Below, piece by piece: positions 1-12,650 of a stretch of DNA of 12,650 nucleotides. Position numbers and translations under genes: made by a program. The DNA lies in IMG/VR virus record IMGVR_UViG_2850756110_000008; one strand, given 5' to 3'. The DNA comes from a virus (taxonomy: Duplodnaviria; Heunggongvirae; Uroviricota; Caudoviricetes). The notes beneath the pieces were generated by a model that had not been told where the DNA came from, ran no database searches, and saw only the letters and a program-made list of their open reading frames with translations. The number at the start of each line of letters is the position of its first letter. Position 1 is the stretch's first letter.

Positions 1-294
1 GTGGCGCACGTCTTCGGTGAACGCACTCTGGCCACACTGGAGCGTCTTCTGAGCCTGCTGTCGGCCTTTGAGGTCGTGGTATGGATGACGGATGGCTGGC
101 CGCTGTATGAATCACGCCTGAAGGGAAAGCTGCACGTTATCAGCAAGCGTTACACTCAGCGCATTGAGCGACATAATCTGAATCTGAGACAACATCTGGC
201 AAGGCTGGGACGGAAGTCACTGTCGTTCTCAAAATCGGTGGAGCTGCATGACAAGGTCATCGGGCATTATCTGAACATAAAACACTATCAGTAA
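1..294 (+). CDS. insB: IS1 transposase InsB, C-terminal fragment (5' end outside window)
   Basis: Translation ...[70 protein letters not shown] is near-identical to the InsB C-terminus from memory. Confidence 0.9.
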
Positions 295-309
295 GTTGGA
301 GTCATTACC
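1..309 (+). mobile_element. IS1, right-end portion (element continues upstream of window start)
   Basis: ORF 1..294 is the C-terminal 97 aa of IS1 InsB. Its stop codon lies inside a terminal repeat ATCAGTAAGTTGGAGTCATTACC at 287-309 that matches the IS1 inverted repeat as I recall it. Confidence 0.9.
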
Positions 310-321
310 CAAGTAAATAAA

Positions 322-341
322 AACCCGCTCAACAGCGGGTT
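322..341 (-). terminator. Rho-independent terminator (tR'-like) downstream of the Q gene
   Basis: An 8-bp stem (322-329 pairing 334-341) with a 4-nt loop; on the minus strand it is followed by TTTATTTACTT. It lies about 110 nt downstream of the Q stop codon. Confidence 0.6.
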
Positions 342-374
342 CGTGAAAATTATCAACGGCAGACATACAAAGCC

Positions 375-416
375 CATCGTTGAGAAAATCTTATCCATGT
401 TTTTTGAAAAATGCAA
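375..416 (-). promoter_or_regulatory. Late promoter PR'-like with qut-like pause element
   Basis: On the minus strand: TTGCAT (plus 416-411), 17-bp spacer, TAAGAT (plus 393-388), then AACGAT at about +1 to +6. This resembles the -10-like sigma-dependent pause element of lambda PR' as I recall it. Position immediately after Q is as expected. Confidence 0.45.
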
Positions 417-447
417 GCTTCATGTCGCCATCTTCGGCGAAAATCAC

Positions 448-1200
448 TTATCTCGTCACCTTTCTCAATTGTGTTTCAGCATATGCTTCTTCCTGCCAGC
501 ACTTTGTTACTAGTTTATCAATTACGTCTGCATATCCTTTGTACCACTGATAATCAGTCAGGTCTGGAACCAGCTTCTGGACATGACGTCGTGCCAGTGT
601 AGTTGGTAAACGGCTAAACCGGTTTCCATTGCAACGCCCACAAATCTTATAAACAGGCGTGCCATGAAGCCGGGTCCTTTTTTCATCCAGGACAATACCT
701 TTACCCTTACACCCTCTGCACGCTGTGCTGACTTCTCCCTTACCATGACAATGCTGACATAGTTCCTTCACCCACTCTTCCTTGATAACAGATTCCCCGC
801 TTCTGGAGTGTTTCACCACCTCGCGCAATACATTATGAAATCCAGTACCAGCACAATGCTCACAGCGAGCCTTACTTGCCGCAGACCTAGAATAATCAGC
901 AAAGGCAAAATTCACAAGGTAAGGAATGATCTGTAGCCGGGTTTCTTCACTCAATTTATTCAATGTCGGGTTATCCAGTGCCATCGCGTAATTGAGCAGA
1001 CCTTCAATCGCAAACTGAGGATCCTGAACACCAACTTTTGCCAGGAATAAGGCAAACCCAAGCGGTGCTTTCGACTGCACCATCCCCTGCGCAGCCATCA
1101 CATCCGTAATCGTTAAACCACCAGAGCCTGTCGCCGGTGCGTCATCGCTCAGTTTTGGAGATTTCGGGGAGTAATATTTCGGTAAGGCTTCAAGGTTCAT
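448..1200 (-). CDS. Q: Lambdoid antitermination protein Q (82/Qin-type, 250 aa)
   Basis: 250-aa ORF with GGAG 7-8 nt upstream of ATG. Cys/His-rich zinc-binding region (CEHCAGTG...CQHCHGKGE...CRGCKGKG...CGRCNG) and overall resemblance to prophage Q homologues (QuuQ-like). Located at the end of the nin operon, before PR'/tR'. Confidence 0.85.
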   Translation of the reverse strand: MNLEALPKYYSPKSPKLSDDAPATGSGGLTITDVMAAQGMVQSKAPLGFALFLAKVGVQDPQFAIEGLLNYAMALDNPTLNKLSEETRLQIIPYLVNFAFADYSRSAASKARCEHCAGTGFHNVLREVVKHSRSGESVIKEEWVKELCQHCHGKGEVSTACRGCKGKGIVLDEKRTRLHGTPVYKICGRCNGNRFSRLPTTLARRHVQKLVPDLTDYQWYKGYADVIDKLVTKCWQEEAYAETQLRKVTR

Positions 1201-1213
1201 GCTCGTTCTCCAC

Positions 1214-1924
1214 TTACGCCAGTACGCCTATTGCCAGCGCACGATCGATAAAACGAAATATCAGCTCCAGCTGGGAACCATACTTCTCTTCAAATGCCAC
1301 GGTATCCGCATGCAGCTCGTCGTGATGCTTTCTGCACAAAGGCAACACAAAGAGGTCATGCGCTTTTGTACCCATTCCCCCCTGACCGTGGCCTATCAGG
1401 TGGAGGGGATCATCAGCAGGCTTTCCACAACATGCACACGGCTGTGTCTTAACCCAGCGTGTGTACTTTTCATTAACCCAGCGGCGACGTTTTGGGCGTA
1501 ACATAAAAGACTCCGGCGACTCCGGATCCACTTTCAGCGCCAGCACCTTTTTCACCTTATCCTGGATGATGCTGGTGGCAGGAACCGAAGGCACAAGGTC
1601 ACTTTCCCGGGTGACAGACGGCACAACAGGCTTCGGTAATCTCAGTGCCTTACGGGCTGCACTTTCCGGTAAGGCATCCGCCAGGTCATTACGAATCAGC
1701 CACCAGCACAGTTCCGGCATTGTCACAACGTGACTATCATCAAAACCGAGATCCCGACGCACAACAGACAACACCCAGCGGGCACAGTTATCCGTTGCCA
1801 TTGATTCCAGCCGTTCCGTGAACTGATCGCGCAGCTGGTTATCGCAGTGCCAGCACAGACGGATTGCGCCGGCGCGTGTCGCATTGTTGTCATGTTCTCG
1901 CTGTGCCAGTCGGAATGAGGCCAC
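1214..1924 (-). CDS. YdfU/DUF968-like phage protein, C-terminal part (HNH-like Zn motif); apparently frameshifted relative to 1723..2166
   Basis: C-terminus CACCGKPADDPLHLIGHGQGG...LCRKHHDELH is typical of the DUF968 family found just upstream of Q in Qin-like prophages. The ORF opens with GTG at 1924 with no plausible RBS, and its first 39 codons look like genuine protein (CWHCDNQ). Confidence 0.6.
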   Translation of the reverse strand: MASFRLAQREHDNNATRAGAIRLCWHCDNQLRDQFTERLESMATDNCARWVLSVVRRDLGFDDSHVVTMPELCWWLIRNDLADALPESAARKALRLPKPVVPSVTRESDLVPSVPATSIIQDKVKKVLALKVDPESPESFMLRPKRRRWVNEKYTRWVKTQPCACCGKPADDPLHLIGHGQGGMGTKAHDLFVLPLCRKHHDELHADTVAFEEKYGSQLELIFRFIDRALAIGVLA

Positions 1925-2166
1925 TGGCAGCCTTTTTCACGAAGTAACCAGCTTTCAAGACATTCCACGCCACCAGCACGACGGATCACTGCCTCATTGC
2001 GGAACACGGCCCGAACGTCAGGATCATCCGCCAGCGGTTGTGATGCCGCCGGAACAGCACCACTGGCGAAAGATGAATAACGTTCCGGCTCAGGCTCCAG
2101 CAGGACACGCCCCTGCATAAACAGGGGCATCAGCTCTGAACTTGGTCTGAACAATACGATCCCCAT
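1723..2166 (-). CDS. N-terminal fragment of the same DUF968-like gene (different frame)
   Basis: Begins 40 nt after the KilA-N gene stop. The first ~85 residues look protein-like; downstream of about 1920 the frame becomes Cys-rich low-complexity junk, while the other frame opens at 1924. Likely a single gene with a 1-nt indel near 1895-1925. Confidence 0.4.
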   Translation of the reverse strand: MGIVLFRPSSELMPLFMQGRVLLEPEPERYSSFASGAVPAASQPLADDPDVRAVFRNEAVIRRAGGVECLESWLLREKGCQWPHSDWHSENMTTMRHAPAQSVCAGTAITSCAISSRNGWNQWQRITVPAGCCLLCVGISVLMIVTL

Positions 2167-2208
2167 ACGCGGGGCAATTTCAGGGGCAGTAGTGCTCTCA
2201 CGGTCACC

Positions 2209-3006
2209 TCAATGAACGGTATCGAGCAGCTTTAACAGCTCAGGGAATCGGGATTCGAAGAAATGCGGCTGCGTCTCACGCGGATTTGCGGGACTGGTGA
2301 TATTCTTGCCGAACATGCAGCCTTTCGCTGTCAGCGACCAGAATTTTTTGATGTTGTTAATCGCTGTACGGCTGTATCGTTCGCGCTGTTCGACGATCCC
2401 CAGCTTCGCCATCTGGTGATATGCCTGATTAGCCGTAAGGCGGATACCATACTGCTTCAGCAGTGCACTCAGTGACAGCGTGGGGCGGCTTGAGCCATCA
2501 GGCGCGTCAGCAGGAGCATCAATGGCATAGCGCGGTGCCAGATTCGGTAAGCCAACAGCCTCCTGGAGTTTCTGACAGGCTCCAAGCACTGAAGAGTTAG
2601 ACAGGTTTAATTCCCGGCGCATAAAGTCCAGCAGAATCACACCAGCCTGCATCTTGTCAGCAGTCTGTCCGGATAATTTTTCCGGTGCACTGGTTACCAT
2701 GTCGAAAGTACGGATCACCTTCAGATGGAATGACGGGCTGATCCACATTGCATAGGCATACACCAGTTCTTTGCAGACATACGTCCCTTGGTTATTTCCG
2801 CCACGAATAACGTTAACTGGTTCTATATTGACCGAGTTGCAAATCTGCAACTCGCTTATTAAACGTTCAGTTTGCTCATTGCGGAGCCAGAATGCAGGCT
2901 TATGCTTATCCAGAGAACCAGCAGCCCTGTGCAGATCGTTCAGGCTGTAACGCCCATAAGCATCACGACGAACTTCAATTCCATCAATAACCATCAGATT
3001 ATTCAT
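2209..3006 (-). CDS. KilA-N domain protein (Roi/antirepressor-like)
   Basis: N-terminus MVIDGIEVRRDAYGRYSLNDLHRAAG...GTYVCKELVYAYAMWISPSFHLKVI fits the KilA-N DNA-binding domain pattern. Position between rusA and Q is typical of lambdoid nin regions. Confidence 0.75.
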   Translation of the reverse strand: MNNLMVIDGIEVRRDAYGRYSLNDLHRAAGSLDKHKPAFWLRNEQTERLISELQICNSVNIEPVNVIRGGNNQGTYVCKELVYAYAMWISPSFHLKVIRTFDMVTSAPEKLSGQTADKMQAGVILLDFMRRELNLSNSSVLGACQKLQEAVGLPNLAPRYAIDAPADAPDGSSRPTLSLSALLKQYGIRLTANQAYHQMAKLGIVEQRERYSRTAINNIKKFWSLTAKGCMFGKNITSPANPRETQPHFFESRFPELLKLLDTVH

Positions 3007-3025
3007 ACTTCGTTTCTCCTCTTAA

Positions 3026-3415
3026 TCAGGCTGCTGCACCCGCCGGTTTCTCGTACTTACTGATAGTGATCTCGACCTTCCCTTCCGGGATAACCGGTCC
3101 CCACTCCACCAGCATTCTTTTCACCTGACTGTCGTCTTCCCACACACCCGCGTGGGTCAGGGCGTCAAACAGCGCCTTGTTATAGTTGTTCAGATCGCGG
3201 ATCCGGTTATCCGGAGGAAACAACACGATCTCCACTGAAGCAGGTGCCGACGTTGGTTTTGGCAGACGACGTAACTGCTCAACTATTGCTGCACACGCCG
3301 CGCTCTGGAATTTGCGCCCCGCTGCGCTTATCAGGCTCTTACCAGCAAACGCCCCTTTGTTGGGGTGTCGCCAGTACGTGTTCACGCTGGGCGGAAAAGG
3401 CAGTATTAGCTTCAT
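3026..3415 (-). CDS. rusA: Crossover junction endodeoxyribonuclease RusA (Holliday junction resolvase)
   Basis: Motifs LPFPPSVNTYWR and DLNNYNKALFDALTHAGVWEDDSQV match the RusA family. Start overlaps the upstream stop as ATGA. Confidence 0.85.
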   Translation of the reverse strand: MKLILPFPPSVNTYWRHPNKGAFAGKSLISAAGRKFQSAACAAIVEQLRRLPKPTSAPASVEIVLFPPDNRIRDLNNYNKALFDALTHAGVWEDDSQVKRMLVEWGPVIPEGKVEITISKYEKPAGAAA

Positions 3416-3738
3416 ACTTTCAGGCCCCTCTCATGTAACCAGTGGGCTGCACGCAGCTTGGCGTTTTCCTCACCGGCAAGCAGTGAGCGGATAATCCCGA
3501 CCGCCTCGCTGTCGTCGTCCTTCACCGCGGTATGAAGAGTGATACCACGGGCCACACCACGCTTTATCGTGATGACGCCTTTTTTCTCCAGTGCTCTAAG
3601 ATGCTCCACCGCTGCATTCACTGAACGGTATCCCAGCATGGTTGCCACCTCCTGATTGGTTGGCGGGAAGCCACGTTCTTTCTGGTAAGAAATCAGCATA
3701 TCCAGCACCTGCTGCTGGCATTGAGTTAACGTCGTCAT
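3412..3738 (-). CDS. LexA N-terminal DNA-binding-domain-only protein (no peptidase domain)
   Basis: The 108-aa product aligns by eye with the LexA winged-helix domain (LTxxQQxVxDxI......GxPPTxxExAxxLGxRSxNAAxEHLxALxxKGVIxIxxGxxRGIxL). It lacks the Ala-Gly cleavage site and Ser/Lys peptidase domain. ATGA overlaps with both neighbours. Confidence 0.75.
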   Translation of the reverse strand: MTTLTQCQQQVLDMLISYQKERGFPPTNQEVATMLGYRSVNAAVEHLRALEKKGVITIKRGVARGITLHTAVKDDDSEAVGIIRSLLAGEENAKLRAAHWLHERGLKV

Positions 3739-4388
3739 GCCGCCATCTCCCTGACAAGTTTTTCTGCCTGCTGGCGAACTTGCGCCAGAAAGGCCTCACC
3801 ACATGCCTCAAGTTCATCGCGCCCGATGTAGCTGATTGCCGGTCCCTTCCAGGTCTTGTCGAAAACGGCAATAGCACCAGCGAAGAAAGCACCGGTTGGC
3901 ACCTGCTTCTCGTCTTTCGGGATAAACCAGGCAGGCAGTTCAAAACCAATACGCCCGCGAATAAAAGCAATATGATCCGCATCTTCCGGCCACCACACTT
4001 CGCTGGTGGCAGCTTTGATCAGGAAAACATAGCGCCCGCCCTTATCACGCATGGCACTGGCATGTTTCATGATGTAACGCATGCCGGTGATGTATTGCCC
4101 CTCATGCTGACTGGCGCGGCTGTATGGAGGATTTCCAAAGGCAGCACCTTTAAGCTCCGCAAGACGTTCTGACCAGTCATGCGCCAGCGCGTTGTCTTCC
4201 GCCGTGTAATACGCGGCACATTTGGCGTTATCACCGTCAGTAAACAGATCCAGAACAAACGGGCCAAACAGGGTGTTAATTCCCCAGAAAATGTTGTCCG
4301 GTGTGCGCCACTGATCGCCCACTTCCTTCAGTTCATGGGCTGGTTTGTTTCGCAACTCCACCAGCGCCTGGCAATATTTATTACTCAT
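3735..4388 (-). CDS. Phage Dam-type DNA N6-adenine methyltransferase
   Basis: Catalytic NPPY motif (GNPPYSRA) and overall similarity to phage Dam (PF05869-type) proteins. Start taken at the ATG at 4388, which overlaps the upstream stop (TAATG), rather than the ORF-track start at 4421. Confidence 0.8.
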   Translation of the reverse strand: MSNKYCQALVELRNKPAHELKEVGDQWRTPDNIFWGINTLFGPFVLDLFTDGDNAKCAAYYTAEDNALAHDWSERLAELKGAAFGNPPYSRASQHEGQYITGMRYIMKHASAMRDKGGRYVFLIKAATSEVWWPEDADHIAFIRGRIGFELPAWFIPKDEKQVPTGAFFAGAIAVFDKTWKGPAISYIGRDELEACGEAFLAQVRQQAEKLVREMAA

Positions 4389-4882
4389 TAAGCCCCCACG
4401 TAATTCCCTGACAGATACCACTCATCACCCGATACAGCGCGCTTGCTGCTTTTCCGTAAGCACCGCTCACGACGCGCCAGAAAATTGTTTCGTTCTGGCT
4501 GGGAGTGGCTTTCACGGAATGCCGCCATCCACACCGTTGCAGCACGACGGTATAAGCCCCTGGACTCCAGTTCTTCAGCCTGGCGGGTCAGGCACAAAAT
4601 CACCCGGGGACCGTTAGTGCCGACATAGAAATTGCGCACAGGTCTGGTTTCTCGAACTGATTGTGGTCCCGGTTCCTGCGCTCTCTCAGTCAGGCGCGGG
4701 AAATGTCTGCGTGTATCTCCTTCACAACGGTGAGCCACACGCCCACTCTGACGTAACTTGCTTGCAGACTGCAGAACGCGCTGCCGTGAGTAACCTGCAA
4801 AAGCATCCGCAATGTCTCCGGAAGTACACCCCGGATGGGCTTCAATGAATTTCTGAACGTCATTCAAAAGACTCATGCTCAC
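4388..4882 (-). CDS. PerC/Pch-like regulator with N-terminal winged-helix-like region
   Basis: C-terminal half carries AEELESRGLYRRAATVWMAAF, the same motif as the PerC-like ORF at 10141 (AEELESKGLYRRAAARWMEVM). Start is either GTG at 4882 or ATG at 4876. Translationally coupled to neighbours. Confidence 0.6.
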   Translation of the reverse strand: MSMSLLNDVQKFIEAHPGCTSGDIADAFAGYSRQRVLQSASKLRQSGRVAHRCEGDTRRHFPRLTERAQEPGPQSVRETRPVRNFYVGTNGPRVILCLTRQAEELESRGLYRRAATVWMAAFRESHSQPERNNFLARRERCLRKSSKRAVSGDEWYLSGNYVGA

Positions 4883-5445
4883 CCCCTGAATCCTGCCGGG
4901 ATCTGGCTGTAGTCCACGTTGTCGTAACTGGCTTTGAAGTACGGGTCTTCACGTTTTTCTGTGTGCGTGCTGACGGACGGCGATAAGCGCAGGGAAAGCT
5001 CATCCCATTTTTCCCGCAACTTCGACGGGCTGAGCACGTTACGGCACCAGAACGGATCGCGGCTGACGCGGCTGTACATCTCGCAGATTTGTTTGTGAGT
5101 ACGGCCATCCTGTACACACATCAGGCGAATTTCGTTTGCCCAGGCTGTCCAGTTCGGTTCTTTGGGACGAACCACCTCGCCGTCACATTCGGCAGCCTGC
5201 TCGTACAGGGCGATGATTTTTTTCCAGAGCCACTGTGCGCAGGTCAAATCATCCTGCGTCCCCCACTGGCGCTTTTTAGGGCTGAATACAACCGCATCAG
5301 GATGGCGAGTTAAAAAATCCTGTTCAGCCGTCTGCGTGTCCGGTTGCGAAGCGTCCGGACGAGAAGGTTTTTTATCTGACGGATCATGTTTTGATTTTAC
5401 TGACGGATCCCCGCCAGATTCTGACGGGTGAAAACCCGCTTTTTT
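4879..5445 (-). CDS. Phage early/nin-region protein, 5'-truncated by IS66-family insertion (function unknown)
   Basis: The ORF runs open up to and into the IS66 terminal repeat (the track's TTG start at 5460 is inside IS sequence). Translation is protein-like (…CAQWLWKKIIALYEQAAECDGEVV…). First gene of the coupled operon. Confidence 0.5.
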   Translation of the reverse strand, partial: KKAGFHPSESGGDPSVKSKHDPSDKKPSRPDASQPDTQTAEQDFLTRHPDAVVFSPKKRQWGTQDDLTCAQWLWKKIIALYEQAAECDGEVVRPKEPNWTAWANEIRLMCVQDGRTHKQICEMYSRVSRDPFWCRNVLSPSKLREKWDELSLRLSPSVSTHTEKREDPYFKASYDNVDYSQIPAGFRG

Positions 5446-5482
5446 GTAAGCGTGCAGCAAGAACCGTATTGACGGGGATGTG

Positions 5483-7021
5483 TTATTCAGTCGGCAGTGC
5501 TACGCGCCAGGGGAGCAGTTCGCCGACCCGGTTTATCGGCCAGTCGGCTATGACGTCAAGGACATAGCGGAGGTAGCTTTCTGGCTCCACTCCGTTCAGT
5601 TTGCACGTCCCGATCAGGCTGTACAGCAGCGCTCCCCGCTCTCCTCCATGATCCGAACCGAAGAACAGGTAGTTTTTGCGGCCCAGACTGACCATCCGCA
5701 ACGCATTTTCAGCGATGTTATTGTCCGCCTCAGCCCAGCCATCATCTGCATAGTACGTCAGCGCCGGCCACTGGTTCAGGGCGTATGCGAACGCTTTCGC
5801 CAGTTCTGAGTGTCGCGACAGGGTTTTCATCTTTTCACGCAGCCAGCTTTCCAGGGATTTCAGCAGCGGTTTCGTTTTCAACTGACGTTCGGCAAGGCGC
5901 TGCTCCGCCGTCATTCCCCTTATCTCTGCCTCGATGGCGTACAGTTCGCCGATCCGTTTCAGCGCTTCCTCCGTCAGGGCTGACGGGGTGCGAACGTGCA
6001 CATCGTGGATTTTACGGCGGGCGTGAGCCCAACAGGCGGCTTCCGTTATCCGGCCATCCCGGTACAGCTCGTTGAACCCGGCGTATGCATCCGCCTGCAG
6101 TACACCACTGAACCCCGCAAGATGGGTCTGCGGATGGATGCCTTTTCTGTCCGGGCTGTAAGCGAACCACACCGCCGGCGCCAGCGTTGACCCGGCGTTA
6201 CGGTCGTCACGAACGTAGGTCCATAACCGCCCGGTCTTCGTTTTCTTATTGCCTGGCAACAGCACCGGGACAGGCGTGTCATCAGCATGGAGCTTACCGT
6301 CAGTCAGCACATAGTCCTGAAGCGCTTCTTCCAGCGGTGACAGTAGCCGGCAGCATGCATCCACCCAGCCCGACAGCAGTGAACGACTCAGCTCCACGCC
6401 CTGGCGGCCGTACATTTCAGACTGGCGGTACAGCGGGGTGTGCTCTGCATACTTTGAGATCAGCACGCGGGCCAGCAGCCCCGGTCCTGCGATACCCCGC
6501 TCGATGGGCCGTGAAGGCGCGGGGGCCTGCACGATGGCATCGCACTGAGTACAGGCATGCTTTTCACGTACAGTCCGGATAACCCGGAAGACGCTGCGCA
6601 TCAACTCCAGCTGTTCGGCGGCATCCTCACCCGGATAGCTCAGTGAGCCTCCACATTCCGGGCAGCATGACGCTGCCGGCAGCAGCCGTTTTTCATCGCG
6701 GGGGAGTGATTCGGGGAACGGTTTGCGGGTGCGGGTTTGACGCAGCGGGCGCTGCACGGCCGGGTCGTCAACCCGACCGGTAAGGGTATCACTTTCTTTC
6801 TGAAGTGCCTTCAGGTCAGCTTCCATCTGTGCGATACGACGGGAGACTTTTTCGGAGCGGCTGCCGAAGTTCATCCGGCGCAGCTTATCCAGCTGTGCCT
6901 GCAGATGGTCTATTTCGCGTTCACGCTCGTTCAGCTTTTCCAGCAGGGCACGGTTCAGCGCCTCCTGTTCGGCAAGGAGACGTTTCAGTGCATTGATATC
7001 GTCAGGAAGTGAGCTGCTCAT
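5483..7021 (-). CDS. IS66-family transposase (TnpC/orf3)
   Basis: 512 aa with N-terminal coiled-coil/leucine zipper, CxxC...CxxC zinc finger (CPECGG...CTQC) and conserved LHADDTPV and TGRLWTY motifs. Confidence 0.9.
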
Positions 7022-7069
7022 ACCGGGTATATTACCAGGCTCATTCAGCGTCGACCAGGATAAAGAGGC

Positions 7070-7417
7070 TTACAACATAGTCAGGGACGTAAGCAGTCTT
7101 TTAGGCTGCCGCCAGTCGATACCTTCAAGGAGCATCGCCAGCTGTGCCGGTGTGAGGAACACTTTGCCATCCCGGGCTGACGGCCAGGCGAAGCGGCCGC
7201 GCTCCAGCCGTTTGGTCAGCAGACACAGTCCATCGCCGGTAGACCAGAGGAGCTTTACCTGACTGCCATTACGCCCACGGAAGATAAAAACGTGACCTGA
7301 CATCGGATCGTCTTTCAGCGTCGTCTGCACCTTTGCCGCCAGGCCGTTGAAGCCATTTCTCATATCGGTGATACCGGCAACCAGCCAAATTTTGGTCCCG
7401 GAAGGTAACGGGATCAT
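7070..7417 (-). CDS. IS66 Orf2 (TnpB) accessory protein
   Basis: 115-aa protein (…LVAGITDMRNGFNGLAAKVQ…LWSTGDGLCLLTKRLERGRF…) typical of the IS66 orf2 family. ATGA overlap with orf1. Confidence 0.85.
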   Translation of the reverse strand: MIPLPSGTKIWLVAGITDMRNGFNGLAAKVQTTLKDDPMSGHVFIFRGRNGSQVKLLWSTGDGLCLLTKRLERGRFAWPSARDGKVFLTPAQLAMLLEGIDWRQPKRLLTSLTML

Positions 7418-7794
7418 CGCTTCAGTTCCTGTATCAGCAGAGTCAGGAGCTTTTCGCTGACATTGCCATTGAAGCGGAGCGTCCCGTGCCGGAACGTTAC
7501 CTCACAGCTGATACTGAGGGTTTCCGGATCCTCTGCGAGCGATTCTGGCTGTTCGGCAGCTGCATCGAGAGTCACAGGAAGTAGCTGGGGGCTCTCTGAA
7601 GAAGGTAATAGCAGCTTTCCCTCGCGCCATTGTTGTCGCCATTTGAACAACAGATTGGCGTTAATGCCATTTTCAAGAGCAAGTTTTGAGATGGATATCC
7701 CGGGTTCACAGGAGGCAGCAACGAGCTGCTGTTTAAATTCGGGAGGATAATTAGGGCAGCCTTTTCGCCTGCCGGGATTCACATTTTTCTGCAT
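7414..7794 (-). CDS. IS66 Orf1 (TnpA) accessory protein
   Basis: Helix-turn-helix-like small protein in the first position of the IS66 operon. ATG at 7794 (MQKNVNPGRRK…) preferred; the ORF-track start at 7815 is a GTG. Confidence 0.8.
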   Translation of the reverse strand: MQKNVNPGRRKGCPNYPPEFKQQLVAASCEPGISISKLALENGINANLLFKWRQQWREGKLLLPSSESPQLLPVTLDAAAEQPESLAEDPETLSISCEVTFRHGTLRFNGNVSEKLLTLLIQELKR

Positions 7795-7946
7795 ATCTGA
7801 CACTTTGGTTCCCACTACTTATTTGGTGGACACCACTTTGTCTAATTCGTCAGATTCTGACCAGACGGTTCAGGCTGTACGCTGATATGACTTTCCGTGT
7901 CAAACCGGAATCTCTAATTTTGACGATTTTCTTTTTAGGTTTAATT

Positions 7947-8129
7947 CCCTGAGGGCGACGTAGCAGTAAATCCGACGGTGAATCACGCTGATATTCGCGG
8001 GTTGGATACCGCATTACAGAGGTCCGTCATATGAGCCTGCCACTTTCTTACGTCGCGAATCAGCTTTGTTCCGCCGTCGCCAAGCGCTAACGTGGGTTAC
8101 TCTTGTACCGGGCTACGTCGCCTTCAGGG
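7947..8129. ncRNA. Candidate IS110-family bridge-RNA-like structured noncoding element (strand undetermined)
   Basis: An 18-bp inverted repeat (7947-7964 CCCTGAGGGCGACGTAGC; 8112-8129 GCTACGTCGCCTTCAGGG, one G/U-compatible mismatch) encloses 147 nt. Inside, ACGCTGATAT (7985-7994) is identical to the 10 nt spanning the IS66-terminus/IS110-end junction (7879-7888). Confidence 0.3.
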
Positions 8130-8148
8130 AACTGGTTATTCTCATTTT

Positions 8149-9276
8149 TTATTTGTGACATTGTGGTTGTTGTGCGACAGACATTGCTATTCGGCCCATA
8201 TCCCAGATAAAACCCGCCAGCTCACGTGCAACAGCAACAATTGTAATATTGACATTCTTTCCTTTGGCCTGAAGTTTTCGATACCTCTTACAGAGCCTGA
8301 GTTGAGCATCCCATGCTCTGTCAATGACGGGGCGGGGTAAATTTTCCTGCCTTTTTTGTATTGCCGGACTGATGCGTGCCGGATGACGGTAACTCCACGC
8401 TGCCTCGACCAATAGCTTTCTGGCATAGCTGTTTCCGGCTTTGGTAATGCTGCCCTGATGTCTGCTTCCACCCGATGAATATTCTGATGGCGTGATACCA
8501 AACCATGACATCAGTTGTCGTGGATGTTCAAAACGGGTCAGATCACCCAGTTCAGAAATTAATCCAACCGCAGTAATAAACTGAATCCCTCGCATGGCTT
8601 GCAGCGCCTCTACTACCGGATACAGCCTCCATTCGGTAACGGCCTCCTTCAGGGCGGATTCCAGCCGTTCACATTGTGCCTGCCGGTCTTCTATTGTACG
8701 ACGGTGTTCGTCAAAAGCTAATTGTCGCCAGGGACTTTCGAATGAGTATTTGCTGAGCCAGCGTCGGTGTGCAGGGCCCCAATCTGCTCGCCCGACATAA
8801 TGGACCCCATGAACCAGAAGAAACGATTTCAGACGTTGCCTTGCATGCCGTAAATCATCGCGGGCAGATGCCCATGCCCGGGCCAAATCCCGGAATGCCT
8901 CATCTTCAATGCCGGGTACGTAGACAGCAGAAAGATCTCCTGCACGCAGTGAACGCACAAGTCTGATGGCATCACGGCGATCGGTTTTAACCCGCTCCCC
9001 CGGTTTTTTCGGGATAAGTGAGGGGGCGCAGACCATGCAGTCAAAACCGGATTTCACCAGCCGACGATAAAGTCCATAACCACAGGGCCCCGCTTCATAA
9101 ACGATACTGACCTGCGATGACTTTGACCTGAGACGTTTACAAAGATTCTGAATATCAGTAGGTGATGTGCCAATTTTACCCATCAGTTCAACAGGTTCTG
9201 AATTGATAGCATAAGCGACAGTAATCGATTCTTTGTGAACATCTAACCCGACGTACAATGTGTTATTGTTGTTCAT
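8149..9276 (-). CDS. IS110-family transposase / DEDD recombinase
   Basis: 375 aa from the ATG at 9276, with GGAGG 7 nt upstream. N-terminal RuvC-like DEDD motifs (YVGLDVHK, IVYEAG, KTDRRDA) and C-terminal Tnp domain with conserved Ser (GITPSEYSSGGS). The ORF track extends the start to 9324, which lacks an RBS. Confidence 0.85.
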   Translation of the reverse strand: MNNNNTLYVGLDVHKESITVAYAINSEPVELMGKIGTSPTDIQNLCKRLRSKSSQVSIVYEAGPCGYGLYRRLVKSGFDCMVCAPSLIPKKPGERVKTDRRDAIRLVRSLRAGDLSAVYVPGIEDEAFRDLARAWASARDDLRHARQRLKSFLLVHGVHYVGRADWGPAHRRWLSKYSFESPWRQLAFDEHRRTIEDRQAQCERLESALKEAVTEWRLYPVVEALQAMRGIQFITAVGLISELGDLTRFEHPRQLMSWFGITPSEYSSGGSRHQGSITKAGNSYARKLLVEAAWSYRHPARISPAIQKRQENLPRPVIDRAWDAQLRLCKRYRKLQAKGKNVNITIVAVARELAGFIWDMGRIAMSVAQQPQCHK

Positions 9277-9426
9277 GCTGGCCTCCGTGGTGGAAATACC
9301 GGGGGGTAGCAACAGCTCACCCATGCGGCTCTGACAACGATGTTAACCCGCGTTAAATATCCCACGTTGGCCAGCATCTGTCTCACGGAAAGTCATACTG
9401 CCTTACTTTCCAATGGGCACTCATGT

Positions 9427-9882
9427 TTATACGCTGACCTTACAATCAATCACCGCTTTTAAATTTTCAGCATTGCTTCCCTGACGCTTCCACGCGCTGT
9501 AAATATCTTTATCCCACGCTTTACCAGCTTTTGTTTGATAGCCTGCTTCATTGATCCGTTCAGCTATCACACGCCCATTATCAAATCCCTGTTGGATGGT
9601 ATCGGCAATGATCTTTATAACTGCCGTTTCGTTATATGGCTTTGGTGGGATGTTCGGCTTTCCGGCAATAAGCGACGCAGCGGCTTTTTCCATGCGCTCC
9701 ACCAGCCCAAGCATTCGTGAATCAATAGACTTTTCCGGCTGTCCCAGCTTCATGCGAATCGCATCAACAAGCCAGGAGGTTTTATCCCCTCCAGAAGCGA
9801 GAACAGACCGATTAAACTCATCCTGCAATTCAGATGGGATGCGGAACGCGATCAGATTAGATTTGCTCATTGCAAAGACCAT
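9427..9882 (-). CDS. Hypothetical protein, possibly ribbon-helix-helix (Arc-like) DNA-binding at the N-terminus
   Basis: 151-aa protein-like ORF divergent from the PerC-like gene. N-terminus NLIAFRIPSELQDEFNRSVLASGGDKTSWLVDAIRMKL resembles RHH folds. A palindromic operator-like site lies 20-50 bp upstream. Stop is 30 bp from the IS110 end, so the C-terminus may be altered. Confidence 0.5.
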   Translation of the reverse strand: MVFAMSKSNLIAFRIPSELQDEFNRSVLASGGDKTSWLVDAIRMKLGQPEKSIDSRMLGLVERMEKAAASLIAGKPNIPPKPYNETAVIKIIADTIQQGFDNGRVIAERINEAGYQTKAGKAWDKDIYSAWKRQGSNAENLKAVIDCKVSV

Positions 9883-9899
9883 ATCAGTGAGTAATATCC

Positions 9900-9931
9900 A
9901 TACAGTATACCACTGTATAACACTGTTATAC
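9900..9931. promoter_or_regulatory. Overlapping palindromic operator-like sites upstream of the 151-aa gene
   Basis: ATACAGT-N5-ACTGTAT (9900-9918) and a perfect 17-bp palindrome GTATAACA-C-TGTTATAC (9915-9931). A minus-strand TATACT -10-like hexamer overlaps. Confidence 0.4.
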
Positions 9932-9983
9932 GCTCAAATATCAGCCAGAAAATAACGGACCAATCACAAAGCTATCGCTGTGT

Positions 9984-10104
9984 TGTTGGTTCAGAGCTGG
10001 GCTGTGTTGGTTCAAAATGAGTTGATGTTGGTTCAATATTTTAGAAAAACATAATAAAAACAACGATCTTTACAAATTGAACCAACTGAACCAACTGAAC
10101 CAAC
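9984..10104. repeat. Iteron-like array: six copies of GTTGGTTCA (3 direct at 21-bp spacing, 42-bp AT-rich spacer, 3 inverted in 9-bp tandem)
   Basis: TGTTGGTTCA at 9984-9993, 10005-10014 and 10026-10035. AT-rich 10036-10077. TGAACCAAC at 10078-10086, 10087-10095 and 10096-10104. Confidence 0.7.
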
Positions 10105-10135
10105 ACCTTTTTGCTTATCTATATAATCTGAGAGG
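10096..10135 (+). promoter_or_regulatory. Putative promoter and RBS of the PerC-like gene, overlapped by the inverted repeats
   Basis: Perfect TATAAT at 10122-10127 and GAGAGG at 10130-10135 before the ATG at 10141. The -35 region coincides with the TGAACCAAC repeats. Confidence 0.3.
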
Positions 10136-10140
10136 CAGAA

Positions 10141-10422
10141 ATGATAAGGGACAGGAAAGCTGAAGAGCTGGAGTCAAAAGGGCTATACCGGAGAGCTGCC
10201 GCACGATGGATGGAAGTCATGCTGTTATGCACCGAGGACGATGATCGGGAATGGATAAAGCGCCGCCGTGAAACGTGTCTGGAGAACGTGAAGCGCCCGC
10301 CCGTGAAGGTTGAGGAATTTGGCGACCTGCATAAAGCTGTTACCGAAACGCAACACCGCATGGGGATAGCGCAACCGAACGGTAACGCCTTCCGGTTAAA
10401 TGGCGGCAAGAGGCAAAGGTAG
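10141..10422 (+). CDS. PerC family transcriptional activator-like protein
   Basis: 93 aa with the N-terminal motif RDRKAEELESKGLYRRAAARWMEV characteristic of PerC/Pch proteins as I recall them. Good RBS. Confidence 0.7.
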   Translation: MIRDRKAEELESKGLYRRAAARWMEVMLLCTEDDDREWIKRRRETCLENVKRPPVKVEEFGDLHKAVTETQHRMGIAQPNGNAFRLNGGKRQR

Positions 10423-10718
10423 ACCACCAGAGGGAAATCATCCTCTGGCTGGCGGTTTCTGGTATTTCGGGACAAGTACGCGCGCGCGTAGCACCCAATC
10501 GGTGAGGAAATAGCGGCGACCTGAATGGTCAAAATCACAACGCAGCTATCCCCGTAAGCAGCGCTTAACGGAATAGCAGTAACCTGAATCCAGTGGGGAG
10601 GGGTAGTCAAATCTCTACAGCCCTGACTATCCGGGACTGCCCGCCCCATCGTTTTTTTATACCCGCGAAAAATGAAATTTAATCCGGGCGTGTTTCATCC
10701 TTCCAGAGGGTATGACGT

Positions 10719-10904
10719 ATGACACCACGCGAAATAGCCTTATTGACCATCGCCAAACTTGAGCACGGAGGCCACCAGCTTACACAGGCAGATCAACGGG
10801 AGATAGAACGATCAGTTAATGCCGATATAGCCCGGCGCGACAGGTTCCGCGAAATGATGCGAGCACCTGCCTACCAGTGGAAGAAGCCAGCGCCGCGCAG
10901 GTAG
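10719..10904 (+). CDS. Hypothetical small protein (61 aa)
   Basis: GAGGG 8 nt upstream of ATG; charged helical-looking product; no family recognised. Confidence 0.4.
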   Translation: MTPREIALLTIAKLEHGGHQLTQADQREIERSVNADIARRDRFREMMRAPAYQWKKPAPRR

Positions 10905-11024
10905 ATATGGGATTATTCCACATGTACCTTATGCGTATTAAGCAAATTTCCTTTATTCACCTTTACAGAATTGTGAGTACGTCAGTATCGTTATCCTTCC
11001 GATTCGCATTTATTCAGGATTTGC

Positions 11025-11567
11025 ATGTACCAGCTAAAGATAACCATCCGAGACAGCAAACCACCTATATGGCGGCGTGTGCTGGTTCCAGAGCAAATCC
11101 CCTTTAGTAAACTTCATGCCGTGATCCAGTTAGCTTTTGGCTGGAATGACGAACACCTGTATATGTTCGAGAAAGGGCGTAAAGGTGATCCAGGTAGCGA
11201 GTATCGCGTATGGGGTGAGGATGAAAGCATGGGTAACGCGGCAATCACGCCACTATGGGCGGCGCTCCAGAATGAGGGTGACAAGCTGGTTTACACGTAT
11301 GACTTTGGCGACTGGTGGGATTGCGTCATTGTGCTGGAGAAGCAAACACACGATACGAGTAATCAGCCCATTAGCTGCCTGCGTGGGAAAGGCACCACCC
11401 CGGCGGAAAACTCAGGCGGCTTGCATGGTTACAATGAATTGCTATTACAGGCCAGAGAGTCTGATAATCCTGAGCAGGCCGAGATCCACAATTTCCTGAT
11501 GCTGGATATTGAACGCCGGGTTTACGACCTGAGCCGCATCAACGACAGATTGCAGGCTATTAACTGA
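11025..11567 (+). CDS. Plasmid pRiA4b ORF-3-like family protein
   Basis: N-terminus MYQLKITIRDSKPPIWRRVLVPEQIPFSKLHAVIQLAFGWNDEHLYMF matches the conserved start of PF07929-type proteins as I recall them. Confidence 0.65.
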   Translation: MYQLKITIRDSKPPIWRRVLVPEQIPFSKLHAVIQLAFGWNDEHLYMFEKGRKGDPGSEYRVWGEDESMGNAAITPLWAALQNEGDKLVYTYDFGDWWDCVIVLEKQTHDTSNQPISCLRGKGTTPAENSGGLHGYNELLLQARESDNPEQAEIHNFLMLDIERRVYDLSRINDRLQAIN

Positions 11568-11919
11568 CCCGCATGTATTCACCTGATATTGCGTTGTCAG
11601 CGCCGCCAGTATCGCGCATAACAGCGCACTGACCGGGTAAACCGTAGCGCACGACCGTTGCGTTAGTATCACCGCCGCGCCGTATCTGGCGCGATTCATA
11701 CACTGTCACCCGCTCAAGCAGTCCACCAGCAACCATGCTTTCCAGTGTGCGCCGGGTTGATTCGAGCTGGTGACGCTTATCGAACGACACCATGCCATGA
11801 AGCAGGTAGGCCACACCCGACACATCGAACGGCGGCGCACCAATCTCACCAGTCACCCATTCGAGGTTATCCGGTTCAAAGTAGCTAAGTATCTCTTTTT
11901 TGCGACTGGTCATTCTCAT
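11560..11919 (-). CDS. Hypothetical protein (119 aa), convergent with and overlapping the previous gene by 8 bp
   Basis: Protein-like composition; AGGA 11 nt upstream of ATG at 11919; no family recognised. Confidence 0.45.
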   Translation of the reverse strand: MRMTSRKKEILSYFEPDNLEWVTGEIGAPPFDVSGVAYLLHGMVSFDKRHQLESTRRTLESMVAGGLLERVTVYESRQIRRGGDTNATVVRYGLPGQCAVMRDTGGADNAISGEYMRVS

Positions 11920-12146
11920 GGCTGGCTGATTCCTTATTGTGGGATAGCACTATCATACAATAAGTGGGTTAAAGGGAGAGCGTTACCGCCTGATATGCTG
12001 TATGAATAACAACCAAATTTCAGGGGCGGAAAAAGATATGGGGGTACTTTTGGGGGTATCTATAAAAAATGAACAATAAAAAAGGCAACAAAAACAAAGC
12101 TTATCGCCTATGTGTATTGTTCCTATTATCCATTTAAATCAATAAG

Positions 12147-12650
12147 TTACACATCATTAGTACGTTCCTTATTTCTTGACTGGGACAAATTTGGGACCGA
12201 TGGGTTCAGAATCGAGTCTATTTGCCGTGCGTGTTCGGTAAGGTGATTAGGTGCGAGGTGAGCATATCGACGAACCATTTCGATAGACTCCCAGCCTCCC
12301 ATTTCCTGTAACACTGATAACGGGACTCCGGCTTGAACCAGCCAACTTGCCCAGGTGTGTCTCAAGTCGTGAAATCTGAAATCATCAATACCTGCTCGTC
12401 TCAGCGCCGCTTTCCAGGCTGTGTTTGCGTCATACCGCATCTTCCTGACTGTTGGCGCTTTCGTTCCGTCTGGTTTGGTACAGCTTTCCTTATACACAAA
12501 TACCCAACGGTGATGATTCCCGATTTGTTTTTTCAATACGCGACATGCAGTATCATTCAGCGCAACGCCAATTGCGCGGTTTGATTTACTCTCTTCCGGG
12601 TTTATCCATGCCACCCGGTGAGGTGTACTGGCAATAGCGGACACTACCAT
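12147..12650 (-). CDS. Tyrosine-type phage integrase, C-terminal catalytic domain (5' end beyond window)
   Basis: Conserved HDLRHTWAS (His-x-x-Arg) and catalytic Tyr context EMVRRYAHL. The ORF is open to the window edge. Confidence 0.9.

What the first reader, a model, noticed from the sequence alone, without database searches (positions are those of the whole stretch)
10719..11919. Uncharacterised cargo module next to the integrase
A 61-aa ORF, a 180-aa pRiA4b-ORF3-like protein and a 119-aa convergent ORF whose 3' end overlaps the previous gene by 8 bp. None belongs to the standard lambdoid core. Their position between integrase and regulatory region is where prophages carry accessory or moron functions. 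The tail-to-tail overlap leaves no room for a terminator, implying transcriptional interference between the two genes.
Basis: inference. Interest (0 to 1): 0.5.

Follow-up and report, generated by a model that had tools for sequence, protein, structure and literature searches.

The report
Accessory gene slot at a satellite's end
The three genes are real, but they are the last 1.4 kb of a phage satellite island of the described EcCIMP1 type, not cargo of the prophage that owns the neighbouring integrase: two small conserved island genes bracket a variable slot, which here holds one gene of unknown function.

Summary
All three ORFs and the 8-bp tail-to-tail overlap are present as described, and all three are under purifying selection. 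The context reading is wrong. The module lies inside the right end of an EcCIMP1-type phage-inducible chromosomal island (PICI). That island's published att core, TCCTATTATC, sits at 12121-12130. The integrase at 12147-12650 lies outside the island. It is the IS-truncated 3' end of a lambdoid prophage integrated in tandem.

The trio is not an obligate unit. The 61-aa gene and the 119-aa gene are island backbone genes that face each other across a variable slot. Elsewhere the slot is nearly empty, or holds the pRiA4b gene, a Panacea/SocA pair plus pRiA4b, an IS, or other genes. The pRiA4b gene (PF07929, MM3350 fold) has its own conserved promoter-like site.

The 119-aa protein is probably a winged-helix autoregulator. 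A 15-nt-arm palindrome containing a -10-like hexamer lies directly upstream of its gene in every homologue examined.

No known defence, toxin-antitoxin or phage family matches any of the three. Function remains unknown. The best lead is EcCIMP1's unexplained superinfection immunity. Overall this is a modestly interesting, uncharacterised part of a known kind of element.

The parts
9406..12130 (.). Remnant (about 2.7 kb) of the right end of an EcCIMP1-type PICI. It is cut on the left by an IS110-family element and ends on the right at the att core.
   Evidence: Homology to thrW islands of E. coli starts at window 9406. The module is 99.9% identical to E. coli MP1, the type host of EcCIMP1 (H30). 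In MP1 the experimentally defined PICI end lies 211 bp beyond the 119-aa start, which corresponds to window 12130 (PMC11773190).
9427..9882 (-). 151-aa backbone gene. Its N-terminus looks like a ribbon-helix-helix domain when read by eye.
   Evidence: ORF. Homologues of 141-170 aa lie inside or next to the slot in L008-L011, L028, L032, L036 and L039. There is no significant Pfam hit.
9984..10106 (.). Array of GTTGGTTCA motifs, three direct and three inverted, between the divergent 151-aa and PerC genes. It is a candidate operator or iteron region.
   Evidence: The array is conserved in many related islands, often in two copies.
10141..10422 (+). PerC/ANR-family regulator. It is identical to the protein that carries the same accession as EcCIMP1_025 of MP1.
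   Evidence: PF06069 at E 3.7e-30. It is 100% identical to WP_000617443.1 loci, the same accession as in MP1. PMC11773190 shows that it silences LEE1 in Citrobacter rodentium.
10593..10658 (+). Terminator-like hairpin followed by a T run, at the start of the conserved 123 nt upstream of the 61-aa gene.
   Evidence: Fold of -24.3 kcal/mol, z -1.7. Window 10596-10718 travels with the 61-aa gene in other loci.
10719..10904 (+). 61-aa island backbone gene forming the left flank of the cargo slot. Its C-terminal tail APAYQWKKPxPRR is conserved.
   Evidence: dN/dS is 0.28-0.35. It matches phrog_7271, unknown function, at E 2e-6. tblastn finds it in none of 50,697 phage records.
10962..10991 (+). Sigma-70-like promoter (TTTACA, 18-nt spacer, TATCGT) for the cargo gene.
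   Evidence: It is conserved upstream of pRiA4b in nine further loci from several genera and partly in Serratia L007.
11025..11567 (+). pRiA4b ORF-3-like protein (PF07929, MM3350 fold). It is the dispensable cargo gene in the slot.
11560..11919 (-). 119-aa island backbone gene, the terminal gene at the att end. It is a probable winged-helix DNA-binding autoregulator.
11933..11964 (.). Palindrome CTTATTGTGGGATAG-CA-CTATCATACAATAAG, a candidate operator overlapping the 119-aa gene's -10-like hexamer (TATGAT on the minus strand).
   Evidence: It is present upstream of every intact homologue examined (about 25 distinct sequences). Inner bases co-vary. Homology between islands with different att sites stops at its outer edge. 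It occurs once per island. The RNA hairpin is not unusual, z -0.9.
12121..12130 (+). att core TCCTATTATC, the right boundary of the PICI.
   Evidence: Single match in the window, against 0.01 expected. The core sequence and island ends were determined by sequencing the attP junction in PMC11773190.
12147..12650 (-). 3' part of a tyrosine integrase from a tandemly integrated lambdoid prophage. It is outside the PICI and is truncated by an IS end at about 12618.
   Evidence: PF00589. In many E. coli genomes homology starts at window 12130 next to tRNA-Thr. The last 35 nt match transposase-bearing records. The full-length copy in L005 is followed by xis-like, exo, bet, gam, cI and cro genes.

Best explanation
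The region is the att-proximal (3') end of an EcCIMP1-type phage-inducible chromosomal island, of which only about 2.7 kb survives in this window.

Shown:
- The 61-aa gene and the 119-aa gene are conserved island backbone genes that converge on each other.
- Between them lies a variable accessory slot.
- In this lineage the slot holds a single cassette, a PF07929 (pRiA4b ORF-3 / MM3350-fold) gene preceded by its own conserved sigma-70-like promoter.
- The neighbouring integrase belongs to a different, tandemly inserted lambdoid prophage.

Inferred (about 0.6):
- The 119-aa protein is a winged-helix dimer that binds the palindrome overlapping its own -10 element and represses itself.
- No terminator fits between the convergent genes, whether the slot is full (8-bp overlap) or nearly empty (gaps of 16-40 bp). 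Its transcript and the cargo transcript must therefore run into each other, which could damp cargo expression.

Guess (about 0.2):
- The pRiA4b protein is an accessory factor acting in the satellite-helper-host conflict.
- It is the most obvious uncharacterised candidate for the helper-dependent superinfection immunity reported for EcCIMP1, an island in which no known defence system is detected.
For: - Identity with EcCIMP1: the module is 99.9% identical to the MP1 chromosome (H30). It lies at 16070-17270 of L049, just inside the published island end. The published att core occurs once in the window, at 12121-12130.
- Layout in intact relatives: the order is int, AlpA-type HTH, AntA/B, Ash/Icd, P4-type primase, ejection proteins in some, a variable region, PerC, the 61-aa gene, pRiA4b, the 119-aa gene on the opposite strand, then att.
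- Backbone versus cargo, from 33 species-representative loci:
  - The 119-aa gene has a 61-aa homologue within 3 kb in 19 loci, but pRiA4b in only 8.
  - The two backbone genes are directly convergent with 16-20 bp gaps in Shimwellia, Yersinia and a Pseudomonas record.
  - E. coli MSB1_1D has a 40-bp gap that retains a 15-nt pRiA4b remnant.
  - E. coli UTME-9 and Atlantibacter add a SocA/Panacea pair.
  - Other loci carry an IS256-type transposase (by its sequence; not profile-tested), or CHAD, DUF2280 or unknown genes.
- Operator.
- Cargo promoter.
- Literature: PICIs are reported to carry immune systems at their 5' or 3' ends (PMC11364771). EcCIMP1 gives superinfection immunity, yet PADLOC and DefenseFinder find nothing in it (PMC11773190).
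Against: - No experiment or profile links any of the three proteins to a function.
- The -35 region upstream of the palindrome is not conserved and is poor.
- The palindrome occurs only at the 119-aa gene, so the protein has no visible second target.
- Distant PF07929 homologues sit alone among housekeeping genes, with no mobile-element or defence context. This argues against an intrinsically anti-phage family.
- EcCIMP1 has other hypothetical genes that could explain its immunity phenotype.
- The slot's other contents are mostly unknown rather than recognised defence genes.
Confidence: 0.7

Rival explanations
1. One reading: the three genes are a moron or cargo module of the lambdoid prophage that owns the adjacent integrase, carried between int and the regulatory region.
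For: An integrase ORF lies 228 bp away, and lambdoid replication, nin and Q genes lie at 448-5460.
Against: - The integrase's 3' end faces the module, as lambda int faces attL. Its full-length copy in L005 is followed, away from the module, by xis-like, exo, bet, gam, cI and cro genes.
- In most genomes this integrase abuts tRNA-Thr, with homology starting at window 12130.
- The PICI att core lies between the module and the integrase.
- The module occurs without this integrase next to dinD (L003, L055) and in MP1.
- Homologues of the 119-aa and 61-aa proteins are essentially absent from 50,697 phage records.
Confidence: 0.03
2. The pRiA4b gene and the convergent 119-aa regulator, with or without the 61-aa gene, form a dedicated two- or three-gene defence or toxin-antitoxin-like system. 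The winged-helix protein would neutralise or repress the effector.
For: - The convergent pair with an identical 8-bp overlap is kept in 342 E. coli genomes and 8 other species, down to 72-75% protein identity.
- Autoregulating small DNA-binding partners are typical of such systems.
- The location is the PICI 3' end, a known immune hotspot (PMC11364771).
- EcCIMP1 has an unexplained immunity phenotype (PMC11773190).
Against: - The 119-aa gene is far more widespread than pRiA4b. It is found with other neighbours or none.
- pRiA4b occurs without it in Serratia, and alone in distant genomes. The gene is therefore unlikely to be toxic or to need this partner.
- The genes are convergent, not co-transcribed.
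- PADLOC gives no hits.
Confidence: 0.1
3. pRiA4b serves the mobile element itself, for example in DNA handling, maintenance or transfer, or is a near-neutral passenger. It has no role in phage defence. The 119-aa and 61-aa proteins are PICI life-cycle regulators.
For: - PF07929 genes are recurrent passengers of plasmids and of ISAzba1-group transposons (PMC3942029).
- The two flanking genes are conserved across islands with different integrases and att sites, as expected of core functions.
Against: - The gene is dispensable for the island family. Empty slots and deletions exist.
- Strong purifying selection (dN/dS about 0.1) argues against a neutral passenger.
- No nucleic-acid-binding or enzymatic family match is available.
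Confidence: 0.3

Closest known systems
EcCIMP1, the thrW-integrated PICI of E. coli MP1 mobilised by the P22-like phage Kapi1 (Pick, Stadel and Raivio 2025, PMC11773190)
   Same: The window's PerC, 61-aa, pRiA4b and 119-aa genes and the att core TCCTATTATC are essentially identical to the right end of EcCIMP1. The gene order and the distance from the 119-aa start to the island end (211 bp) are the same.
   Different: Only the last 2.7 kb is present here. The int, alpA, primase and ejection-protein genes are missing, cut off by an IS110-family element. The window also carries a 151-aa gene that MP1 lacks at this position. The paper does not discuss the three genes.
Accessory or immune regions at the 3' end of Gram-negative PICIs, and the defence hotspot of P4-like satellites (PMC11364771; Rousset et al. 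2022, recalled from memory)
   Same: A variable set of genes sits between conserved satellite genes next to the att site. It sometimes includes recognisable conflict genes, such as a Panacea/SocA pair, or Abi genes nearby.
   Different: Here the flanks are a 61-aa gene and a winged-helix gene, neither described as a hotspot marker. Most slot contents, including pRiA4b, match no known defence family.
MM3350 of Methanosarcina mazei (PDB 2I1S), the structural type of PF07929
   Different: 2I1S is a structural-genomics entry with no function. The window's gene is satellite-borne, whereas many family members are solitary chromosomal genes.
Small autoregulated winged-helix repressors (MarR, ArsR and PadR types)
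   Same: The size, the predicted helix-turn-helix plus beta-hairpin wing, and a palindromic site overlapping the gene's own -10 region.
   Different: There is no significant sequence match to any Pfam wHTH family. No second target site is present in the island. An extra C-terminal beta segment is variable.

Membership tests
PF07929 PRiA4_ORF3 / MM3350-like | Scores above the Pfam gathering threshold over the full domain | tested here: met
   146.2 bits against a cut-off of 26.6, covering residues 2-170 of 180.
PF07929 PRiA4_ORF3 / MM3350-like | Adopts the MM3350 fold (PDB 2I1S) | tested here: met
EcCIMP1-type PICI | Sequence continuity with the characterised island up to its experimentally mapped end and att core | tested here: met
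   99.9% identity to MP1 over 10650-12000. The att core TCCTATTATC lies at 12121-12130, 211 bp from the 119-aa start, as in MP1.
EcCIMP1-type PICI | Island carries int, alpA and a primase/replication gene and lacks phage structural and lysis genes | tested here: not met
   These genes are absent from the window. The island is truncated at 9406 by an IS. Intact relatives L005 and L049 do have them. The window therefore holds a remnant, not a functional PICI.
EcCIMP1-type PICI | Helper-phage-dependent excision, circularisation and transfer | not testable with these tools
   Shown for MP1 with Kapi1 in PMC11773190. The remnant here lacks an integrase of its own.
Lambdoid prophage moron | Lies inside the boundaries of the prophage that owns the adjacent integrase | tested here: not met
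   The integrase's homology block starts at 12130, next to tRNA-Thr in other genomes. The att core separates it from the module. Its prophage extends in the opposite direction in L005.
Known anti-phage defence systems (PADLOC-DB 2.0) | Profile match to a component of a described system | tested here: not met
   No hits at E up to 1 for the 61-aa, 180-aa, 119-aa, PerC and 151-aa proteins. PMC11773190 reports the same for the whole EcCIMP1.
Type II toxin-antitoxin pair | Co-transcribed adjacent genes that are always inherited together | tested here: not met
   The genes are convergent. The 119-aa gene occurs without pRiA4b in most loci, and pRiA4b occurs without it.
Winged-helix transcription regulators (119-aa protein) | Helix-turn-helix followed by a beta-hairpin wing | tested here: inconclusive
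Winged-helix transcription regulators (119-aa protein) | Cognate palindromic DNA site at a regulated promoter | tested here: met
   A 15-nt-arm palindrome lies 13 nt upstream of the start codon. It is conserved with co-varying inner bases in about 25 distinct loci. Binding itself is untested.

The most novel reading that the evidence does not exclude
The PF07929 (pRiA4b ORF-3 / MM3350) protein is the effector of the helper-dependent superinfection immunity that EcCIMP1 confers without any recognisable defence system. It would be expressed from its own promoter and tuned by convergent transcription from the autoregulated winged-helix gene. This would give the first function to a protein family found across bacteria and archaea. 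It would also define the 61-aa/119-aa gene pair as markers of a new satellite cargo hotspot.
Probability: 0.12. Interest if true: 0.65.

Novelty: new member of a known kind. Interest (0 to 1): 0.35.

Why it matters
The finding corrects an annotation trap. In IS-rich enterobacterial genomes, a satellite remnant lying against a tandem prophage's integrase looks like prophage cargo.

It also identifies a concrete place to look for new satellite accessory or defence genes in Enterobacterales. This is a variable slot bracketed by two small conserved genes, with a conserved palindrome marking one side.

Finally, it nominates three specific genes for testing in a system that already exists, MP1, EcCIMP1 and Kapi1, where an immunity phenotype has no known cause. 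One of them belongs to the widespread but function-less PF07929 family. If none of them has a phenotype, this is simply an ordinary uncharacterised island end.

Tried and rejected
- Profile searches of the three proteins in Pfam, NCBIfam, PHROGs and PADLOC gave only PF07929 and an unknown-function PHROG.
- PDB sequence and profile searches for the 119-aa protein gave nothing credible.
- An exhaustive profile search of 1.84 billion representatives found a tiny family of 93 members, mostly fragments, with no link to a named family.
- Neighbourhoods of distant PF07929 homologues showed no conserved partner and no mobile or defence context.
- Rfam found nothing in the window. The PerC to 61-aa spacer is partly a terminator-like hairpin, not a recognised RNA.
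- The palindrome as an RNA hairpin was rejected: z is -0.9.
- I first read L006 as a mosaic, with the 119-aa protein at 95% identity and pRiA4b at 61%. I dropped this. That metagenome contig has fragmented housekeeping genes and a dN/dS of 0.53, so assembly error is likelier.
- The MP1 transcriptome paper gave no gene-level data for the module, and no supplements were held.
- A literature search for PF07929 and pRiA4b found no functional study.

Full report
**Observation**

They are 10719-10904 (+, 61 aa), 11025-11567 (+, 180 aa) and 11560-11919 (-, 119 aa). The two stop codons give an 8-bp tail-to-tail overlap at 11560-11567.

The 180-aa protein is a clear PF07929 PRiA4_ORF3 member, at 146 bits against a cut-off of 26.6. 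The other two match no Pfam, NCBIfam or PADLOC model. The 61-aa protein matches only an unknown-function PHROG.

All three are genuine genes. dN/dS against orthologues in other genera is 0.07-0.14 for the 119-aa gene, 0.04-0.11 for pRiA4b and 0.28-0.35 for the 61-aa gene. Each has many homologues in Enterobacterales.

**What element this is**

The window is E. coli or Shigella-like DNA with a heavy IS load. No complete E. coli genome holds the whole arrangement. The 1.35-kb module itself is found in 384 of 5426 complete genomes, always on the chromosome.

Annotated contexts show the module at the far end of a 12-20 kb island. The gene order is:
- a P4-type integrase next to thrW, or at a site near dinD/yicG;
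- an AlpA-type HTH gene, AntA/B, and Ash/Icd;
- a P4-type primase;
- P22-like ejection proteins in some islands;
- a variable region;
- PerC, the 61-aa gene, pRiA4b, and the 119-aa gene on the opposite strand.

One of the 99.9%-identical hits is E. coli MP1 (H30). MP1 is the host of EcCIMP1, a PICI shown experimentally to be excised, circularised and transduced only with the helper phage Kapi1 (PMC11773190). That paper maps the island ends by sequencing the attP junction and gives the att core as TCCTATTATC.

In MP1 the island ends 211 bp beyond the start of the 119-aa gene. In the window the same 10-mer occurs once, at 12121-12130, which is also 211 bp from 11919. The window therefore holds the last 2.7 kb of an EcCIMP1-type PICI (9406-12130). 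An IS110-family element truncates it on the left.

**The integrase is not part of it**

The integrase ORF at 12147-12650 points towards the island end. In thousands of E. coli genomes its homology block begins at window 12130, right next to tRNA-Thr.

In strain CP131_Sichuan the full-length copy sits in the same position relative to the module. Leading away from the module, it is followed by an xis-like gene, exo, bet, gam, a cI-type repressor and cro.

This is the lambda layout, in which int faces attL. The integrase therefore belongs to a lambdoid prophage inserted in tandem at the satellite's att site. In the window it is cut by an IS end at about 12618.

The module also occurs without this integrase, next to dinD (L003, L055) and in MP1.

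**Backbone versus cargo**

A scan of one genome per species with the 119-aa family returned 33 loci. Their contents break down as follows:
- In 8 loci the 119-aa gene is convergent with pRiA4b with the identical 8-bp overlap. These are Lonsdalea (2), Enterobacter (3), Atlantibacter, Kluyvera and a Klebsiella sp., the last at 72-75% protein identity.
- A 61-aa homologue lies within 3 kb in 19 loci.
- In Shimwellia, Yersinia and one Pseudomonas record, the 61-aa and 119-aa genes converge directly, with a gap of only 16-20 bp and no pRiA4b.

Other slot contents are a SocA/Panacea pair plus pRiA4b (Atlantibacter; E. coli UTME-9), an IS256-type transposase, a CHAD protein, DUF2280, homologues of the window's 151-aa gene, an integrase, and unknown genes in Klebsiella.

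E. coli MSB1_1D has a 40-bp gap that still contains a 15-nt piece of pRiA4b, so there the gene was lost by deletion. Conversely, a Serratia pRiA4b at 77% identity has no 119-aa neighbour. Distant PF07929 genes are solitary among housekeeping genes.

So the 61-aa and 119-aa genes are island backbone genes, and pRiA4b is one dispensable occupant of the slot between them. Neither backbone protein is found in phage genomes: there is one weak hit for one and none for the other.

**The 119-aa gene and its palindrome**

A palindrome lies 13 nt upstream of the 119-aa start codon, at 11933-11964: CTTATTGTGGGATAG-CA-CTATCATACAATAAG. The following points describe it:
- The 45 nt containing it and the ribosome-binding site are conserved upstream of every intact homologue examined, across genera. 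Homology between islands with different att sites stops exactly at its outer edge.
- The outer half-sites TTATTGTA/TACAATAA are near-invariant. So is the predicted recognition helix, ESTRRTL.
- The inner bases co-vary: GATAG/CTATC, GAGA/TCTC and GACAG/CTGTC. This holds even between two tandem paralogues in one E. coli island.
- A conserved asymmetry keeps TATGAT or TAGGAT, a -10-like hexamer, in the arm on the coding strand.
- The site occurs once per island.
- As RNA it folds no better than shuffled sequence.

The most economical reading is a winged-helix dimer that represses its own promoter. This is inferred, not shown.

**The cargo gene**

The family alignment has invariant W16, R17, R18, H31 and H44. 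The motifs Y-x-Y-D-F-G-D-x-W and P-x-E-x-x-G-G are nearly invariant. This hints at a binding or catalytic site but identifies nothing.

A promoter-like TTTACA, 18-nt spacer, TATCGT lies at 10962-10991. It is conserved wherever the gene directly follows the 61-aa gene, and partly in Serratia. Where the Panacea pair is present, pRiA4b follows that pair directly, at a spacing of 44 bp.

The literature holds no functional study. The family is noted only as a passenger of plasmids and ISAzba1-group transposons.

**Convergent transcription**

No terminator-like element exists at the junction. The same is true when the slot is nearly empty. Whether it causes interference is untested.

**Function**

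Nothing here assigns a function. Two published facts make a conflict role the best guess:
- PICIs are reported to carry immune systems at their 5' or 3' ends (PMC11364771).
- EcCIMP1 strengthens superinfection immunity of Kapi1 lysogens, although PADLOC and DefenseFinder find no system in it (PMC11773190).

pRiA4b is the only non-backbone gene in the terminal slot of EcCIMP1, so it is an obvious candidate. I put this at about 0.1-0.2. My reasons for keeping it low are that other hypothetical genes exist in the island, distant family members look like ordinary chromosomal genes, and most other slot contents are not recognisable defence genes.

**Verdict**

The region is an uncharacterised part of a known, recently described kind of satellite. 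It has a tidy and previously undescribed anatomy: two backbone genes, a conserved operator-like palindrome, and a variable slot. It offers a testable candidate gene. Interest is modest at 0.35.

Noticed in passing
window 9984-10106: Six copies of GTTGGTTCA, three direct and three inverted, lie between the divergent 151-aa gene and PerC. The block is conserved, often twice, in many related islands (L007, L016, L017, L021, L029, L030, L032, L036, L039, L042). It could be an operator array or a replication iteron set.
   Followed up: partly
window 9427-9882 (-): A 151-aa gene whose N-terminus reads like a ribbon-helix-helix domain, with no significant Pfam hit. Homologues lie inside or beside the cargo slot in Klebsiella, Pantoea, Erwinia, Tatumella and Symbiopectobacterium islands, so it is another mobile backbone gene. 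MP1's EcCIMP1 lacks it at this position.
   Followed up: partly
window 10593-10658 (+): A long-loop hairpin followed by a run of seven T (-24.3 kcal/mol, z -1.7) lies at the start of the 123 nt that always travel with the 61-aa gene. It probably terminates PerC transcription, so the 61-aa gene would have its own promoter. The 176-aa ORF on the minus strand here looks spurious.
   Followed up: partly
window 12121-12650: The satellite and a lambdoid prophage appear to use the same att core beside thrW and sit in tandem. The prophage integrase is cut at about 12618 by the end of an IS, whose last 35 nt match transposase-bearing plasmid records.
   Followed up: partly
window 1-9405: The IS load is heavy: an IS1 InsB fragment (1-294), a three-ORF IS66-family element (5483-7815) inserted in a lambdoid replication gene, and an IS110-family transposase (8149-9324). 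The lambdoid Q, DUF968, KilA-N, RusA, LexA-like and methylase genes (448-5460) are in inverted orientation relative to the integrase's prophage. No complete E. coli genome has this arrangement, which suggests a Shigella-like, rearranged genome.
   Followed up: no
window 4388-4882 (-): The 164-aa lambdoid ORF has a C-terminal stretch (ELESRGLYRRAA..W) resembling the PerC motif of the island's PerC protein. This was read by eye and not tested.
   Followed up: no
L012-L015, 7001-7372 and 8409-8711: Some E. coli islands near thiM carry two paralogues of the 119-aa gene about 1 kb apart (54% identical). Each has its own variant of the palindrome with compensating inner-base changes. This is a natural specificity-swap pair for testing operator recognition.
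   Followed up: partly
L055 4256-4295 (E. coli MSB1_1D): The 'empty' slot keeps 15 nt of the pRiA4b coding sequence (GCGTCATTGTGCTGG, equal to window 11324-11338). This shows loss by internal deletion rather than an ancestral empty site.
   Followed up: yes
protein P0413: A 200-aa relative has the 119-aa-type domain fused to a T5orf172/MUG113 (GIY-YIG-related) domain. This fits a DNA-binding role for the N-terminal domain.
   Followed up: no
L006 (JGI metagenome contig): Housekeeping genes (gmk, spoT, ligB) are split into pieces, and pRiA4b shows dN/dS of 0.53. The contig is probably error-rich and its apparent mosaicism should not be trusted.
   Followed up: partly
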